Part shown: piece by piece, positions 3,001 through 57,000 of the stretch
Layout: each line of letters starts with the position of its first letter
How positions within the stretch are numbered: the first letter of the stretch is position 1
Origin: Octopus vulgaris
Lineage: Eukaryota
Assembly (NCBI GenBank): GCA_951406725.2
Contig: OX597840.1
Location: forward strand, 12,648,001-12,712,000
Direction: 5' to 3'
Length of the DNA stretch: 64,000 bases
Made by a program: the position numbers

Positions 3001-6000
3001 AATGCCACGCATCCTTTTCCAAGTTATATATATATATATATTTGTGTATGTGCGTGTGTGTGCGCGTGTGTACATATGTATATATATATATTTATATATG
3101 TGTGTGTTTGTGTGTATCAGATGTGCTTTTAGTTTGTCTGGAGCTACAGTAGATGGTATTTGTCCAAAGCGTTGTGCAGTGGTATTGAACCCAAAACCAT
3201 ACGATTGGGAAACAACCTTCTAAATTAAATAGCCATGCCAGCACTTATATATGAGTTACTCATCCAGAATCAGTCGTTGGCAATTTGTTATAAGATTTAT
3301 TTTATATTTTTAACTTCCTGGGTCTGAGATTAGAAGCAATTCCCATGGCCATTGCATACCTTTCTCAATTGGTGTGTTTCAAATCTAATGGCAAAATGTT
3401 ATCTGAAATTTCATCCGCCAGATTGAAATTTCCTCCAACCAAAATAGTTTAACTTTCTTCCTCAAACATTTTAAATTTCATTAAACACCAACAGTCAAAT
3501 CCAACACAATTCCACGTTCCATAAATAACAATATTAAGAAAACAGACATTTATATTTCTATATTTTAGCCAAGATTCATGCTATGTATGTTCCTCTTGAA
3601 GTTACAATGTTTTAGGAAAAGATAGGACCAGGAAGAGAATTCCAGAGAATCAAAACTCTTACAAGGAAGAATTGTTTGCTTTAAAACTTTTATACAATAT
3701 CACATGAACAAATGTATCATTCACCACATTTCTGAAATAACATTGAATATAATTAATTAAATGTATGCACGCAGTTTCTTTATAGAAATCTTCCTCGTTT
3801 TGTAATGAAGAAAAGATATTGGTCAGAAAATAGAACATGAAATCCAATACAAACTAATACTTGTCTTTTCTACATTTTACCATTAGTGTGAAATTTCATT
3901 CAATTGATACAGTTTAACTTTCTTCCTTGTACATTTTTACTTGCATTAAACACCAACAGCTAAATCCAACACAAGTTCACGTTCCATCAAGAACAATATT
4001 TACAAAACCAACTTTTACATTCACATACTTTAGTCAGGAACGTTTTGTCTAACTCAGAAATACAAACATGGCTGTTAAAGCACCTTGTGTTGTCATTGAC
4101 AATGGATCGTATACATGTAAAATTGGCCTTGGACGTAATCTTGAACCGAGCATTTTCATTCCTTCACATAGCGGTTATTGCAATGATCAGGTATGTTGAC
4201 TATATTTATATAAGTAATAGCAAATGATCCTTGTTTTTTAATGTCCACTTTTCCATGTTTGCATGGGCCAGGTAGAATTCTTCATGAGGGATATTCTATG
4301 CTGATACCTTTTATATCAGGCTATCCTTCGCCTTTTTCCAAATATCATACAGCTGATGAACATGAAGACCATTATAACTTGTAAAACTCAATCACGAAGA
4401 TACCTCTCCCAGTTGTAACTGCCAAGACTCTGAAGCCTATCCATTTGACCAGGCATATAAGATAACCTCCGTCATATACATGGCAGAAGTTTGAGATAAG
4501 CTCCAAGACAAATCCATTGAAAAAAGAATTACATTGGTTTATGTGAAGGAGAATCTAAGAGACGTTATGCAAACCACCTATTTTCTTTCTGGCACATCAA
4601 ATAATGTAATGCAACTAAGTTGGCTAGCCATGTATGGAATTTGAAGAGCAGCTCCACAGCACATACAATTAAGTGGAGAATTGTGGAGAAATCCAAGCCA
4701 TACATTAATGGACATAAGAAATGCAACTTCTCCATAGCAGAAAAGTTTCGTATGCTTTTTAGATCCAGATCTGCCTAATTCCAGATCTGAAATTTTTAGT
4801 AGGTGTAGAAACACGGACAGGTTTCTTTTATTGAATTTAAGGGCACCACCAGCTCCATATTGAGTTGCTGTCTCACAGACTTTGACATACTTTCTGTTAT
4901 TTTGTTCTAAACCAGTTGTGTTTAATGAGCTTTCTGAAATTAGGGAGGACGAATATTTTAGTTTTCTTCACTTTGTTTCTTTTTTTGTCTCATTTTTTTT
5001 TACATCACCTTTCTTCTTGTGTTTCCTTATTTTCTCACTGTCCAGCGTCCTTGATTTTAATATATATATATATATATATATATATATATATATATATATA
5101 TATATATAATGCATAAAGAGAATTTGGAAGATTGCTTTAAGATACATTGTGCCTAGTTCATTTATCGTAAAAGCATAGAAGTATCAATTGATACATACAT
5201 GCATACATACATATTATATATATATATATATATATATATATATATATATATATATATATATATATATATATATATATATATATATATATATATATATATA
5301 TATATATATATATATATATATATACTGTTAAAAGTCAGATTGAATCTTGCTTGATTGAATCAGCCAAACTGGCGCATAATGGGAAAATACTTTGAATTAA
5401 ATTTACCCTGAAATGTTAATACAAACGGAATGAAACAATTTTCATGTAAACTGACCAAATGGCTTTTGAGATATTAGAGGTTTTCGGGATATAAATACCG
5501 AAATCGTGGCATAATGGGAAAATGTTTCGAAAATAATCTTCATCCTGAAATGGAAGAAACTCTTATCTATCTGTTAGACACTGTGAGTTGATGAGAACAA
5601 AATATAATTTTTTTTTTACAATAAATATTTCTACTTTGACTTTTGTTAAACGTAATATCTTAATCCTTTAATAGTATTTCTAACTGAATGTGATTTCAAA
5701 AATGTAAGCATTTGTACTGTAAGTATTTATATTTTAGCTTTCTTTAAACAGAAAATATTTTAATGATTTTTAAGGTTATTTTCCGAAATTATAAAAATTT
5801 TTTTGGCTTATAAAAAAGATATTCACAACTGCTTGTGGTGTTTCTCCCTCAGTATAAAAGTGTCTCGTCAGGTGATGTTATAAGAGGTATATCTTTAAAT
5901 AAACTCTGTTTTGCTTAGTTTTGATACAGCATGTTGTTGTTGACCATGTTGTTGGGCAGGAATAGCTAGGGACACATTCCATTGCAATGATGATGATGAT

Positions 6001-54000: not shown

Positions 54001-57000
54001 AGCGCTTCTAGAACTCAGTTTGCTGACGTGGGTGGGTCTTCTCAAGAAGCTCATATCATCAGACATCTCAGTCCATTGTCATTTCCTCCATGAGGTCCAA
54101 CGTCCTGAGATCGGTCCTTACCCCCTTCATCCCACGTCTTTCCGGGTCTCCCTCTTCTGCAGATACCATCCACTTTCAGTGATCACCACTTCTTTATGCA
54201 GCTGGCCTCATTCATACACATCACATCTCCAAACCAACGGAGTCTTCTCTCTTGCATGCTACATTTGATTCCTCTTATGCCCAACTTTTCTCTTTGCACT
54301 TTGTCGTACATGTGCACTGATGTTGCACATCCAACAGAGCATACTATCTTCATTTCTTTCCAGTCTATGCACATCTTCTGCACTGAGAGCCCATGTCTCA
54401 CTTCCAAGGAGTATAGGCCATTCACACACAAGCATCATACAGTCTACTTTTCACTCTGAGGGAGACTCCTTTTATTGCTGTTAAATACTCCTAATAACTA
54501 TTTTGTGATGGAATGTTCTGAATAGAGTTTCAATAAGGAAAACACTTTTCATCCTTACTTCAAACTTTAACAGAAAGATATCAAAGGATTAATCATGGGA
54601 TATTATAGTATTTAATATGGGATATTGTAGGATTAGTTATCAGAATTCCAGAATTCATGTAATTCTTTCTATAATTCCTGTATTTTTGTATTTCAGGGTG
54701 AAGTGATTGGAAATGAACTCAAAAACTATAATGCTAAAATTAAATCTGGATCCAGTACAAGTGTTCTAAACTTGAAGCATCCGATTGAACGTGGTGTCAT
54801 TACCAACTGGGATGATATGGAGAAGATTTGGTTGCATGCATTCAAAGAGTTGAAAGTTGCACCTACAGAAAGCTCTGTCTTGTTGACTGAGGCTGTTTTT
54901 AACCCCAAGGACAACAGAGAAAAGATGGCCGAAATTATGTTTGAAAAGTTTAACACTCATGCATTATGTATTGCTGATCAGGCTTCACTGTCCCTTTTGG
55001 CTTCTGGTCGTATCACAGGTATGTCTGTGGATGTAGGTCATGGCATCACCCAAATTGTCCCTGTCTATAAAGGGTCAGTTAAACGAGAAGCTGCTGTCCA
55101 GTGGGAGTTTGGTGGTGTGGACATGACAGATTACCTTACGAGTATGTTGACTGAACGTGGTTATTCCTTTGACAGTCCTTCTCAGACAGAAACTGTCCGT
55201 AACATCAAAGAGAAGTGTTGTTATGTTGCTCTAGACTTTGAACAGGAAATGCAGACTGCAGCCTCTGAGAAATATAAATTACCTGACAAGCAAGTCATTA
55301 CCATTGGCAATGAACGATTCCGTACCCCGGAACTTCTGTTCCAGCCAAGTTTAATTCATGAGGGATCTGAGGGTATTCATGTAAGAATTCGTGATTCAAT
55401 CATCAAATGTAATAGGTCGATTAAAATGCCCCAATTTCAGAAAATTGTATTGTCCGGTGGTTCGACAACATTCAGAGGCTTTGCCAAGCGCCTAAGAAAA
55501 GAAATGAGTTCCATTCTGGCACCTGCAACGATATTTCAGATTATTGATCATGGAGAACTTAAATACGCTACATGGCGTGGTGGTGCTGCATTGGCTAGTT
55601 TGTCTATCTTTAAAGATAGGTGTATTAGCAGAGAAGAATATAATGAACATGGCTCAAATATTCTCGATAAAAAATATATGTAATATGTATGTGTCATTGA
55701 TATATATATATATATGATATAATATAATATAAATCCAGTTCTGTGTGTTTGTGTGTGTGTGTGGATGTGCGTAAAAGATTATAACGGCTGTATTGTTCAA
55801 CTGATTTTACTCCAAAGTGGGAACAGATATTACTTATGTTCCACGGATGGACCAAGATTCCAAGCATTTCCAAATACAAAATTAGACAATACAACGCTGC
55901 ACTAAAGATAATATCATTTGGAGTCACAAAAATTTAACTGAGTCAGGATTCATGCAATCTTTCAGGATCCAAAGTCAGATTTATCATCGGATTGCCTATC
56001 TACTACCTCTGTCCAATGAATCACCAAAATCAGCCTTTCATTGTTTATAATCTGTACATGTTCTTTGGTAGCTTATTTCGTAACCAAAGAACATACTATA
56101 CGTTTACTTATATTATTAATCAACGATTTTTTAATTGATGGTGGGTGATTACTATTAACATTTATATAACTAAGGTTTTCATTAAGTTTATGATATGGTT
56201 GTGTTTTACCCGTAATTAGATTAAAATTACCATCTAAATAATCAACATTAAAATTCTCATTATATATAGTAATACTTAAACCATACCTTTTAAAGAAACT
56301 ATAAAGTTCTTTCTTATAAAATTCTAGGCTACAATTAGTGCAATTCTTAGTAATTAATGAAAGGTCATCCCTATATAAACCACCCTCTATTTTTAAATCT
56401 TTAATTGAAGTTCAGATAATAGATAAATACCTACCAAATCCATAGCTTGTGCAGAATCGGGTGCCCCCATAGTTGTATCAAAATGATCCCTAGTATCCTT
56501 CCAAGCCCATAATTTATTTTTGTATCTAATAAACAATTTCCTAGCCATTTTAATAATATCAACCTCTTCAAAAGTCATTATCACTTTATTCATATATATA
56601 TATATGTATGTATATATATGTATATATATATATATCTTTATATATATATATATATATATATATATATATATATATATATATATATGTATATATATATGGC
56701 AAGTGTCAAGGCCAGTGTTAGTTATTTATTACTTAACTTTCAGATCCTCTGTGTCAATCACCAGGGGATATTAAGGAACACCTACTAGCCCTTTCAATAT
56801 CAATCCACTTGAGACGACCCCCTGCTTCTCTGTTAAAATCTTTCTATTTTAAAGTGAGTTCCATTAAAAACTTCCATGTTAATGTATGTTCAAAACACTA
56901 GTTATTTTACTAAATTCGTATTTTGAAAATAATTAATTTCAACGAAACCATTTTGCTTTATCAGAAATATGGTAACAAAAGTGATAATAAAAATAAGGAA

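What the first reader, a model, noticed from the sequence alone, without database searches (positions are those of the whole stretch)
4068..55683. Tandem array of three intact, strongly divergent actin-like genes
Seen: three genes, each 123 + 987 nt of coding sequence (369 aa), with canonical splice sites and no stop or frameshift, although nearby transposon ORFs are mostly broken. They align to the 375-aa conventional actin with only a 1-aa and a 5-aa deletion but are far more diverged than normal actin paralogs. Known: lineage-specific divergent actins exist elsewhere (Drosophila Arp53D, mammalian ACTL7/ACTRT) and are often germline-restricted. Inference: this is a lineage-specific, expanding non-canonical actin family, possibly in a cephalopod. 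I cannot confirm it is undescribed.
Basis: partly seen in the sequence, partly recalled or inferred. Interest (0 to 1): 0.85.

Follow-up and report, generated by a model that had tools for sequence, protein, structure and literature searches.

The report
Octopus-only divergent actin gene cluster
Three intact neighbouring genes encode fast-changing, octopus-only cousins of actin: a known kind of lineage-specific offshoot that automatic annotation already lists in octopus genomes, but that I found described in no paper.

Summary
Three same-strand, two-exon genes (123 + 987 nt, 369 codons) have GT..AG introns in phase 0 and no stop or frameshift. All are Pfam Actin. Their exon-2 products are 51-52% identical to a mollusc actin.

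They sit on a 0.73 changes/site stem. Every conventional actin sampled, plant to animal, sits within about 0.12.

Relatives scoring above conventional actin exist only in Octopus sinensis, O. vulgaris and O. bimaculoides, as automatic predictions.

Genes 1 and 3 belong to a roughly 42-kb tandem duplication. Gene 2 lies between them.

The copies are mosaics. The N-terminal 61 residues and the C-terminal third come in sharply different types, while the core stays alike. Exons differ about 2-3 times more than the DNA just beside them.

dN/dS among the copies is about 0.9-1.5, so no recent constraint on residues is visible. Intactness is still unlikely by chance.

Best reading: a lineage-specific "orphan" actin family, most likely functional. 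Expression and tissue were not tested. It is a new member of a known kind.

The parts
4068..4190 (+). Gene 1, exon 1 (41 codons, N-terminal type A)
   Evidence: Open frame from ATG with donor GTATGT. It is 38/41 identical to O. sinensis P0007. Pfam Actin E=2.6e-4, which is below the curated cut-off.
4191..12640 (+). Gene 1 intron (8450 nt, phase 0, at the position of actin codons 41/42), holding a broken retroelement on the minus strand
   Evidence: RVT_1 fragments lie at 6772-7482 and 7617-7895.
12641..13627 (+). Gene 1, exon 2 (328 codons + TAA)
   Evidence: Pfam Actin E=6.3e-92. It is 97% identical to P0007.
33835..33957 (+). Gene 2, exon 1 (41 codons, N-terminal type B)
   Evidence: It is 41/41 identical to O. 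sinensis P0008 but only 22-23/41 identical to genes 1 and 3. Pfam Actin E=4e-8. Its best solved-structure matches are conventional actins, ranked above Arp1.
33958..37491 (+). Gene 2 intron (3534 nt, phase 0)
   Evidence: Its last ~940 nt are 96-97% identical to the intron ends of genes 1 and 3.
37492..38478 (+). Gene 2, exon 2 (328 codons + TAA), a mosaic
   Evidence: Pfam Actin E=1.3e-91. Residues 42-61 are 95% identical to P0008. Residues 263-369 are 87-91% identical to genes 1 and 3 but only 51% to P0008.
46070..46192 (+). Gene 3, exon 1 (41 codons, type A)
   Evidence: It is 35/41 identical to gene 1 and 38/41 to P0007.
46193..54696 (+). Gene 3 intron (8504 nt), with a ~370-nt SINE-like insertion beginning about 10 nt after the donor and a longer retroelement frame on the minus strand
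   Evidence: 371-nt gap; 49000-50214: RVT_1 E=5.7e-26 plus a PHD finger.
54697..55683 (+). Gene 3, exon 2 (328 codons + TAA)
   Evidence: Pfam Actin E=6.5e-90. It is 92% identical to P0007.
626..25244 (.). First copy of the ~42-kb tandem duplicated unit (carries gene 1)
   Evidence: Self-BLASTN shows collinear blocks at 94-98% identity with 42856-64000. The gene 1 to gene 3 offset is 42002 nt.
42856..64000 (.). Second copy of the duplicated unit (carries gene 3), running off the window

Best explanation
The window, from an Octopus species close to O. sinensis, holds part of a cluster of actin-derived genes found only in Octopus. In the sense of Goodson & Hawse and Schroeder et al., they are 'orphan' actin-related proteins.

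Origin and growth. The family arose by DNA-level duplication of a conventional actin gene, because it keeps a phase-0 intron at the position of actin codons 41/42. It then left actin's extreme constraint. It now grows by large tandem duplication and evolves as a patchwork, with exchange of sequence blocks among paralogs.

The protein. It keeps the actin fold and most nucleotide-pocket residues: D11, N12, G13, S14, K18, Q137, G156, G158, K213, E214, G301, G302. K336 is also kept in the window copies. All members have replaced G15 (to Y or H), D157 (to H), H161 (to Q), H73 (to R) and the acidic N-terminus. The most rebuilt parts are the D-loop with subdomain 2 and the C-terminal third, which includes the plug, the 283-294 loop and the barbed-end cleft. 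These are the two faces that meet along an actin filament.

Inferred role. These proteins are probably no longer bulk filament actin. They more likely act as specialised partners or modulators of actin structures in particular tissues, and differ among themselves at their contact faces. A germline role is possible by analogy only.

Shown: gene structure, intactness, family placement, Octopus restriction in the databases searched, duplication, and mosaicism. Inferred: that they are expressed and functional, and their biochemistry. Actin residue numbers and their roles are recalled textbook knowledge, applied to the alignment.
For: - Intact two-exon models with canonical splice sites.
- Pfam Actin at E about 1e-90 to 1e-92.
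- Best 60 solved-structure matches are all conventional actin. For the type-B exon 1, actins rank above Arp1.
- The family clade has 100/100 support on a 0.73 stem. Gene 1 pairs with O. sinensis P0007 at 100/99.
- Full-length family proteins of 360-369 aa exist in three Octopus species, with two subclades shared between species. Open frames have therefore been kept through speciation and through about 48% residue divergence from actin.
- From, the chance that one substitution makes a stop is about 0.037. Hundreds of substitutions without a stop are therefore not expected by chance (inference).
- All three copies are stop-free, with p about 0.035. They have no indel, while equal-length noncoding windows always have one (0 of 157).
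- The same-unit retroelement frame is broken.
- Profile scores: family 709-781 bits, named single-domain conventional actins 454-460 bits, and no single-stretch protein of normal actin length in between; the unnamed rows at 470-546 bits carry two or three matched stretches and were not inspected.
- Pocket residues are largely retained.
- The N-terminal type B is 41/41 identical between the window and O. sinensis, although it differs from type A at 18-19 of 41 residues.
Against: - No expression data of any kind were available.
- dN/dS among the three copies is 0.92, 1.22 and 1.49. By segment it is 0.5-2.7 on small counts. No purifying selection on residues is visible in the recent past.
- Variable sites avoid the actin-conserved core only weakly: 14/144 against 30/173, p=0.07.
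- Catalytic and sensor residues are replaced: H161Q, D157H, G15Y/H and H73R.
- Gene 3 carries a SINE-like insertion about 10 nt after its donor.
- Indel density in AT-rich, microsatellite-rich introns overstates what exons would suffer, so the indel argument is softer than its numbers.
- Database models in other species are automatic predictions, and two of them (P0081 at 244 aa, P0146 at 323 aa) are partial or oddly spliced.
Confidence: 0.7

Rival explanations
1. The three copies are young duplicates already drifting as unconstrained DNA. On this reading they are nascent pseudogenes, or only one copy is in use, and they are still open only because too little time has passed.
For: - dN/dS is 0.92-1.49 between copies. 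No segment is clearly below 1.
- For genes 1 and 3, exon divergence (35/1046 at non-CpG sites) is no lower than the whole intron (219/7644, p=0.38) or the retroelement region (49/1156, p=0.32).
- The core-site test is not significant, p=0.07.
- Stop-free survival of a single copy is not rare: 0.20-0.59 per copy.
Against: - Joint stop-free survival is 0.035.
- There is no indel in 3 x 1110 nt, while 0 of 157 noncoding windows of that length are indel-free.
- Gene 1 has an intact, 97% identical ortholog in O. sinensis, and gene 2's N-terminal exon is 41/41 identical to another O. sinensis protein. These lineages therefore predate a species split and are still open.
- The family as a whole kept its frame through about 48% divergence from actin.
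Confidence: 0.2
2. Genes 1 and 3 are one locus assembled twice, as two haplotypes laid in tandem. The true array here would then be two genes.
For: The two units are collinear over more than 21 kb at 94-98% identity, with parts at 97-98%. Octopus genomes are repeat-rich and heterozygous (recalled).
Against: - The units differ by 38 indel events in the intron, including a 371-nt element insertion, and by 48 of 1110 coding positions.
- Gene 1 groups with O. sinensis P0007 to the exclusion of gene 3 (100/99). At 12 of the 46 variable exon-2 residues, gene 1 agrees with P0007 while genes 2 and 3 share a different residue (my count from the rows).
- The order unit, gene 2, unit is what a tandem duplication gives.
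Confidence: 0.07
3. The excess divergence of exons over adjacent DNA reflects positive, diversifying selection on the protein. The alternative is neutral patchwork gene conversion, in which only exons can pair with distant paralogs.
For: Exons against adjacent flanks, mismatches per aligned sites:
- Genes 1 and 3, exon 2: 41/987 against 50/2307, p=0.002.
- Genes 1 and 3, exon 1: 7/123 against 36/1973, p=0.011.
- Genes 2 and 3, exon 2: 35/987 against 23/1325, p=0.007 (all).
- Genes 1 and 2, exon 1: 32/123 against 3-5% in the 860 nt upstream.
- Genes 1 and 2, exon 2: 53/987 against 90/3238, p=1.8e-4.

The excess holds at non-CpG sites, up to p=1.7e-7. dN is at or above dS in most comparisons.
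Against: - Synonymous divergence is raised too: dS is 0.02-0.05 in exon 2 and 0.26-0.32 in exon 1. That points to imported sequence blocks.
- At 29 of 46 variable residues, the minority state is also seen in another family member.
- Block-wise switches of relatedness fit conversion.
- For genes 1 and 3, exons are not more diverged than the deep intron. Low divergence next to the exons could instead be conserved UTR or promoter sequence, or recent homogenisation.
Confidence: 0.3
4. The genes are members of one of the conserved actin-related protein subfamilies (Arp1 to Arp10).
For: Identity to actin (51-52%) is in the range recalled for Arp1. The type-A exon 1 gives only weak, non-significant matches, and these are to Arp3 and Arp4 (E of 0.06 or more).
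Against: - None of the best 60 solved-structure matches of exon 2 is an Arp.
- For the type-B exon 1, Arp1 ranks below about 50 actins.
- No relatives outside Octopus score above conventional actin.
- Relative to actin there are only two short deletions and no insertions.
Confidence: 0.02

Closest known systems
Lineage-specific 'orphan' Arps of Drosophila: Arp53D, and the obscura-group paralogs derived from actin or Arp genes (Schroeder et al. 2020, PMC7038667, abstract and introduction read; Schroeder et al. 2021, PMC8291977, abstract seen in a search listing)
   Same: Both are actin-fold proteins that fall in no conserved subfamily and are confined to one lineage. Both arose by duplication of a highly conserved parent and evolve fast, with dN/dS near or above 1 here and positive selection reported there.
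   Different: - Here the copies form a tandem DNA-level array that keeps the parental intron. Arp2D is a retrocopy.
- Here the copies are mosaics of exchanged blocks.
- Testis expression, which characterises the fly genes, is untested here.
Mammalian testis-specific Arps (about seven, per the introduction of PMC7038667; the names ACTL7A/B, ACTRT1-3 and ACTL9 are recalled)
   Same: Divergent actin-like proteins with no ortholog outside one animal group.
   Different: They are dispersed genes, many of them intronless (recalled), and are old within mammals. The octopus genes are clustered and still duplicating. No sequence comparison was made here.
Conventional actin (for example the gastropod actin P0117, and solved structures such as 4efh and 1d4x)
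   Same: - Same fold family, with near-full-length collinear alignment.
- Intron at the position of codons 41/42.
- Most nucleotide-pocket residues.
   Different: - Only 51-52% identical.
- Deletions of 1 and 5 residues.
- H73R, G15Y/H, D157H and H161Q.
- No acidic N-terminus.
- D-loop, plug and C-terminus rebuilt, with subdomain 2 at 24-38% identity.
Arp1 (centractin)
   Same: A similar overall distance from actin (recalled, about 54%) and a similar length.
   Different: Arp1 is conserved across eukaryotes. It ranks below the conventional actins as a match.

Membership tests
Actin family (Pfam PF00022) | Significant match to the family profile over most of its length | tested here: met
   Exon-2 products: E from 6.5e-90 to 6.3e-92, covering profile positions 55-409 of 410. 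Exon-1 products: E=4e-8 for type B (above the cut-off), and 2.6e-4 and 1.6e-3 for type A (below the cut-off).
Conventional actin | Extreme sequence conservation (recalled: about 90% or more between animal actins) | tested here: not met
   Identity to P0117 is 51-52%. The stem branch is 0.73, against 0.12 or less for every conventional actin sampled.
Conventional actin | Hydrolysis and sensor residues (Q137, H161, D154, D157, G15, methylated H73; roles recalled) | tested here: not met
   Q137 is kept. H161Q, D157H, G15Y/H and H73R occur in all members, and D154 is D, N or S.
Conventional actin | Acidic N-terminus and C-terminal ...KCF (recalled) | tested here: not met
   The N-terminus reads MAVK.. 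or MADVV.., and the C-terminus reads ..KKYM/T.
Conventional actin | Gene structure with an intron between codons 41 and 42 (a widely shared actin intron site; recalled) | tested here: met
   The phase-0 intron follows the Q that aligns with actin Q41. Octopus conventional actin genes could not be inspected, so the shared origin is inferred.
Conserved Arp subfamilies (Arp1-Arp10) | Closest similarity to one Arp subfamily, with orthologs across eukaryotes | tested here: not met
   No Arp is among the best 60 solved-structure matches. Arp1 ranks below the actins for exon 1. Family-level matches come only from Octopus. There is no tree with Arps, because none was available.
Orphan / lineage-specific Arps (sensu Goodson & Hawse 2002, as cited in PMC7038667) | Actin fold, outside every conserved subfamily, confined to one lineage | tested here: met
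   The limit is that the databases' coverage of other cephalopods is unknown to me.
Orphan / lineage-specific Arps | Germline (testis) biased expression, as in the fly and mammalian cases | not testable with these tools
   No RNA-seq or proteome access. One gonad transcriptome paper lists an unidentified 'Actin' gene among sex-related genes (PMC11202624, Table 3 passage). It cannot be linked to this family.

The most novel reading that the evidence does not exclude
The octopus cluster may be a diversifying set of actin-derived proteins in which the two faces of the filament's lengthwise contact are swapped and selected as modules among paralogs.

The two faces are the D-loop side (exon 1 plus residues 42-61) and the barbed-end side (residues 263-369). 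Their exchange would give copies with distinct, perhaps mutually specific, contact surfaces. On this reading the exons stand out as islands of divergence in otherwise homogenised repeats because selection favours or preserves these differences.

This would be a combinatorial cytoskeletal family without a described parallel.
Probability: 0.15. Interest if true: 0.7.

Novelty: new member of a known kind. Interest (0 to 1): 0.45.

Why it matters
Actin is among the most conserved proteins known. Cases where a copy escapes that constraint are few, and they have been studied mainly in flies and mammals.

An independent molluscan case would test whether such offshoots recur for the same reasons, such as germline use or conflict. 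This one is clustered, still duplicating, and has block-wise variation at the filament contact faces.

It also gives octopus biology a lineage-specific cytoskeletal gene family to place among its known expansions.

For annotation, names such as 'actin-3-like' or 'actin, cytoplasmic' on these proteins are misleading.

Tried and rejected
- Structure prediction of P0007 with a 21-row alignment gave an unusable model (mean pLDDT 43.9, pTM 0.39). I drew nothing from it, ran no fold search and did not use the second job.
Accession numbers and cluster members of the Octopus proteins therefore stay unseen.
- The protein-atlas look-up only returned generic 'actin-like' clusters.
- My first site-class test (24/183 against 22/145, p=0.63) was badly defined, because it counted a site as actin-like if any copy kept the residue. 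I set it aside. The stricter version gave p=0.07.
- Scans for TATA and poly(A) signals gave nothing decisive. The first AATAAA-like signals lie 537-821 nt after the stops.
- Rfam and tRNA scans found nothing.
- Pfam on 103 of the 106 stop-to-stop frames of 85 codons or more found only reverse-transcriptase and PHD pieces besides actin. The three actin frames themselves were covered.
- Four literature searches found no description of this family.
- I did not run complex prediction. An actin-actin contact would pass by likeness to solved filaments and would not move my odds.
- I did not use genome contigs, which holds bacteria and archaea only.
- I did not use the third homolog search.
- No tree with Arps could be built, because no named Arp sequence was to hand.

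
Full report
OBSERVATION

The three models are exactly as described. Exon 1 (123 nt) at 4068-4190, 33835-33957 and 46070-46192 gives 41 residues from an ATG. Exon 2 (987 nt) at 12641-13627, 37492-38478 and 54697-55683 gives 328 residues and a TAA.

Donors are GTATGT, GTACGT and GTATGT. Acceptors end a pyrimidine tract with TTTCAG. The introns are 8450, 3534 and 8504 nt, in phase 0. The window has no N.

Wherever a full-length protein was needed I used database proteins returned by the searches (P0007, P0008 and others).

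Nothing in the window looks human. Its nearest relatives are Octopus proteins.

WHAT THE GENES ENCODE

All six pieces match Pfam Actin. Exon 2 scores E from 6.5e-90 to 6.3e-92. Exon 1 scores 4e-8 for gene 2, and 2.6e-4 and 1.6e-3 for genes 1 and 3. The last two are below the curated cut-off.

Against solved structures:
- Exon 2 of gene 1 matches 169 distinct chains. The best 60 are all conventional actins (344-358 bits) and none is an Arp.
- Exon 1 of gene 2 also matches conventional actins best, with Arp1 ranking below about 50 of them.
- Exon 1 of gene 1 is so changed that nothing reaches E below 0.06.

Identity of the exon-2 products to a gastropod actin (P0117) is 51-52%. The alignment needs only a 1-residue and a 5-residue deletion.

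RELATIVES

A word-indexed search of 5.8 billion proteins, first with exon 2 of gene 1 and then with a family profile, returned family-level matches only from Octopus:

| Protein | Species | Name | Length | Note |
|---|---|---|---|---|
| P0007 | O. sinensis | actin-like | 369 aa | 97% to gene 1 exon 2; 38/41 in exon 1 |
| P0008 | O. sinensis | actin-3-like | 369 aa | |
| P0035 | O. vulgaris | hypothetical | 369 aa | |
| P0146 | O. vulgaris | hypothetical | 323 aa | |
| P0064 | O. bimaculoides | actin-3 | 360 aa | |
| P0081 | O. bimaculoides | actin, cytoplasmic 2-like | 244 aa | |

With the profile, full-length family members score 709-781 bits. Named single-domain conventional actins score 454-460 bits. 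No single-stretch protein of normal actin length lies between. The higher rows in that listing are long, tandem-domain gene models whose stretches add up.

An exhaustive HMMER pass over 1.84 billion cluster representatives gave 25108 matches. There too, only P0008, P0081 and P0146 stand out. The other high rows have two or three matched stretches or score 455 bits or less, and I did not inspect those unnamed rows.

In a maximum-likelihood tree of 19 rows, the family is one clade (100/100) on a stem of 0.73 changes per site. All 12 conventional actins, from flax, a cryptophyte and Anaeramoeba to animals, have end branches of 0.12 or less. Where the stem attaches is unresolved. The rows were 4 database family proteins, the 3 exon-2 products and 12 named conventional actins. 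The partial P0081 and P0146 were left out, and no Arp was available.

Inside the clade:
- Gene 1 pairs with O. sinensis P0007 (100/99).
- Gene 3 is next (94/95), then gene 2, then P0008.
- P0035 and P0064 form a second subclade (100/98).

Both subclades therefore predate splits between Octopus species.

ARRAY STRUCTURE

Self-comparison shows that 626-25244 and 42856-64000 are collinear at 94-98% identity. The gene 1 to gene 3 offset is 42002 nt. The window therefore holds about one and a half copies of a roughly 42-kb unit. Each unit carries a long-intron gene (genes 1 and 3) and, in the copy seen whole, a short-intron gene (gene 2). A further gene-2-type copy beyond the window's end is likely, but that is inference.

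The long introns carry a minus-strand retroelement with reverse transcriptase and a PHD finger. In the gene 3 copy it is a 404-codon frame. In the gene 1 copy it is split.

ARE THE FRAMES KEPT OPEN BY SELECTION?

For:
- Placing the observed branch-specific substitutions at random keeps all three frames stop-free in 3.5% of 20000 trials. Single copies stay stop-free in 20-59%.
- The gene 1/gene 3 intron alignment has 38 indel events in 8038 aligned positions, 27 of them frameshifting.
- None of 157 overlapping 1110-column windows of that alignment is indel-free, and 18 lack a frameshifting indel. The coding 1110 nt have none.
- The 1212-nt retroelement frame in the same unit differs by 58 mismatches and 4 indels.
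- Over the long run, the family kept its frame through about 48% residue change and through speciation.

Against:
- Nei-Gojobori dN/dS between copies is 0.92 (genes 1 and 3), 1.22 (genes 1 and 2) and 1.49 (genes 2 and 3).
- By segment the ratios run from 0.54 to 2.7 on small counts.
- Variable residues avoid the sites shared by actin and two outgroup family members only weakly: 14/144 against 30/173, p=0.07.

Recent constraint on residues is therefore not visible. What is visible is constraint on having a frame at all.

MOSAIC EVOLUTION

In exon 1, gene 2 is 41/41 identical to O. sinensis P0008 but only 22-23/41 identical to genes 1 and 3. Those two are 35/41 identical to each other and 38/41 to P0007.

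| Residues | Pattern |
|---|---|
| 42-61 | Same split: gene 2 to P0008 95%; gene 2 to genes 1 and 3 55% |
| 62-262 | All five proteins are 91-97% alike, and 60-63% identical to actin |
| 263-369 | Gene 2 is 87-91% like genes 1 and 3 but 51% like P0008 |

P0008's C-terminal third is about 52% identical to that of every other member. Relatedness therefore switches block by block, as gene conversion or recombination among paralogs would produce.

At 29 of 46 variable exon-2 residues, the minority state is also found in another family member.

At the DNA level, exons are local peaks of divergence:

| Comparison | Exon | Adjacent DNA | p |
|---|---|---|---|
| Genes 1/2, exon 1 | 32/123 differ | 3-5% in the 860 nt upstream; 3.3% in the 123-nt window from 40 nt downstream | - |
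| Genes 1/2, exon 2 | 53/987 | 90/3238 | 1.8e-4 |
| Genes 1/3, exon 2 | 41/987 | 50/2307 | 0.002 |
| Genes 1/3, exon 1 | 7/123 | 36/1973 | 0.011 |
| Genes 2/3, exon 2 | 35/987 | 23/1325 | 0.007 |

The excess survives removal of CpG sites. For genes 1 and 2, exon 2 gives 41/937 against 38/2882, p=1.7e-7.

For genes 1 and 3, however, the exons are not more diverged than the whole intron (p=0.38) or the retroelement region (p=0.32).

Synonymous divergence is raised as well. I therefore favour import of blocks from diverged paralogs, possibly with selection for keeping the types apart, over pure positive selection. Conserved or recently homogenised flanks are a further option.

LIKELY BIOCHEMISTRY (INFERENCE)

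Actin residue numbers and roles here are recalled textbook knowledge, applied to the alignment.

Kept:
- D11, N12, G13, S14, K18 (T in P0064) and Q137.
- G156, G158, K213, E214, G301 and G302.
- K336 in the window copies.

Replaced in all members:
- G15 to Y or H.
- D157 to H.
- H161 to Q.
- H73 to R.
- D154 varies among D, N and S.

The acidic N-terminus is gone. Identity to actin is lowest in subdomain 2 (24-38%) and highest in subdomain 4 (53-63%).

The D-loop, the W-loop, the hydrophobic plug, the 283-294 loop, the barbed-end cleft and the C-terminus are all rebuilt. The two most variable modules are the two faces that meet along a filament.

I infer an actin-fold protein that probably still binds nucleotide, has altered hydrolysis, and is not a bulk filament former. 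A specialised role with actin structures is the most likely use.

COMPARISON WITH WHAT IS KNOWN

The closest known kind is the lineage-specific 'orphan' Arps. Schroeder et al. (PMC7038667; abstract and introduction read) describe Arp53D and four obscura-group paralogs derived from Arp or actin genes. These are testis-expressed and under positive selection. The same paper notes about seven testis-specific mammalian Arps.

The octopus family shares the escape from conservation, the lineage restriction and the fast evolution. It differs in being a tandem, intron-retaining, still-duplicating and mosaic array. Its expression is unknown.

It is not a conventional actin: the conservation, catalytic-residue and terminus tests all failed. 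It is not a conserved Arp.

IS IT IN PRINT?

Four full-text searches found no description of an octopus divergent actin family:
- octopus / actin-like / testis
- octopus / actin gene family / cephalopod
- the species names with actin-like and actin-3-like
- divergent actin / actin paralog / non-canonical actin with octopus, cephalopod or mollusc

Two passages mention actins without identifying them:
- 'actin-like proteins' in an O. vulgaris skin-mucus proteome (PMC11431876, passages).
- An 'Actin' gene, EVM0021683, among sex-related genes in O. sinensis gonads (PMC11202624, Table 3 passage).

Supplements were closed. The library omits most subscription journals.

WHAT STAYED UNCHECKED

- Expression.
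- A tree with Arps.
- The fold: the model was too poor to use.

VERDICT

It is a new member of a known kind, already present as unstudied automatic predictions. The block-wise variation at the contact faces and the exon-centred divergence are the features most worth following up.

Noticed in passing
window 238-636, 1369-1806, 19294-19705, 22990-23384, 23720-24125, 26814-27238 (-), 46205-46573 (-), 58312-58728, 61571-61992, 62481-62881: An interspersed repeat of about 400 nt has at least ten copies at 77-92% identity. Its 177-179-nt core is also found tandemly, at 22638-23158 and 61392-61746. It looks like a SINE, but ARAGORN called no tRNA in it.
   Followed up: partly
window 46202-46575: One copy of that repeat sits in gene 3's intron, starting about 10 nt after the donor. 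It is absent from gene 1, where the alignment shows a 371-nt gap. The GTATGT donor itself is unchanged. Any effect on splicing is unknown.
   Followed up: partly
window 6163-8949 (-) and 48322-51373 (-): A retroelement with reverse transcriptase and a PHD finger lies antisense in the long introns. It also has a 62-nt tandem repeat, at 6165-6379 and 48465-48621. The frame is 404 codons in the gene 3 copy and split in the gene 1 copy.
   Followed up: partly
window 10001-12000 and 52001-54000: There is a strong positive GC skew (about +0.32) in the last 2 kb of the long introns, next to (TA)n and (ATAG)n microsatellites. I have no explanation for it.
   Followed up: no
window 16565-25244 vs 56093-64000: The gene-free part of the duplicated unit is more alike between copies (97-98%) than the part carrying the genes (94%). 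The two units are therefore not uniformly diverged.
   Followed up: no
window 13628-13670, 38479-38520, 55684-55725: A (TA)n run starts within about 25 nt after each stop codon. The 3' flanks of genes 1 and 2 stay about 99% identical for over 2 kb.
   Followed up: no
PMC11202624, Table 3 (not in the window): An O. sinensis gonad transcriptome lists an 'Actin'-domain gene, EVM0021683, under sex-differentiation terms with differential expression. Its identity could not be checked, so this is only a lead for the germline idea.
   Followed up: no
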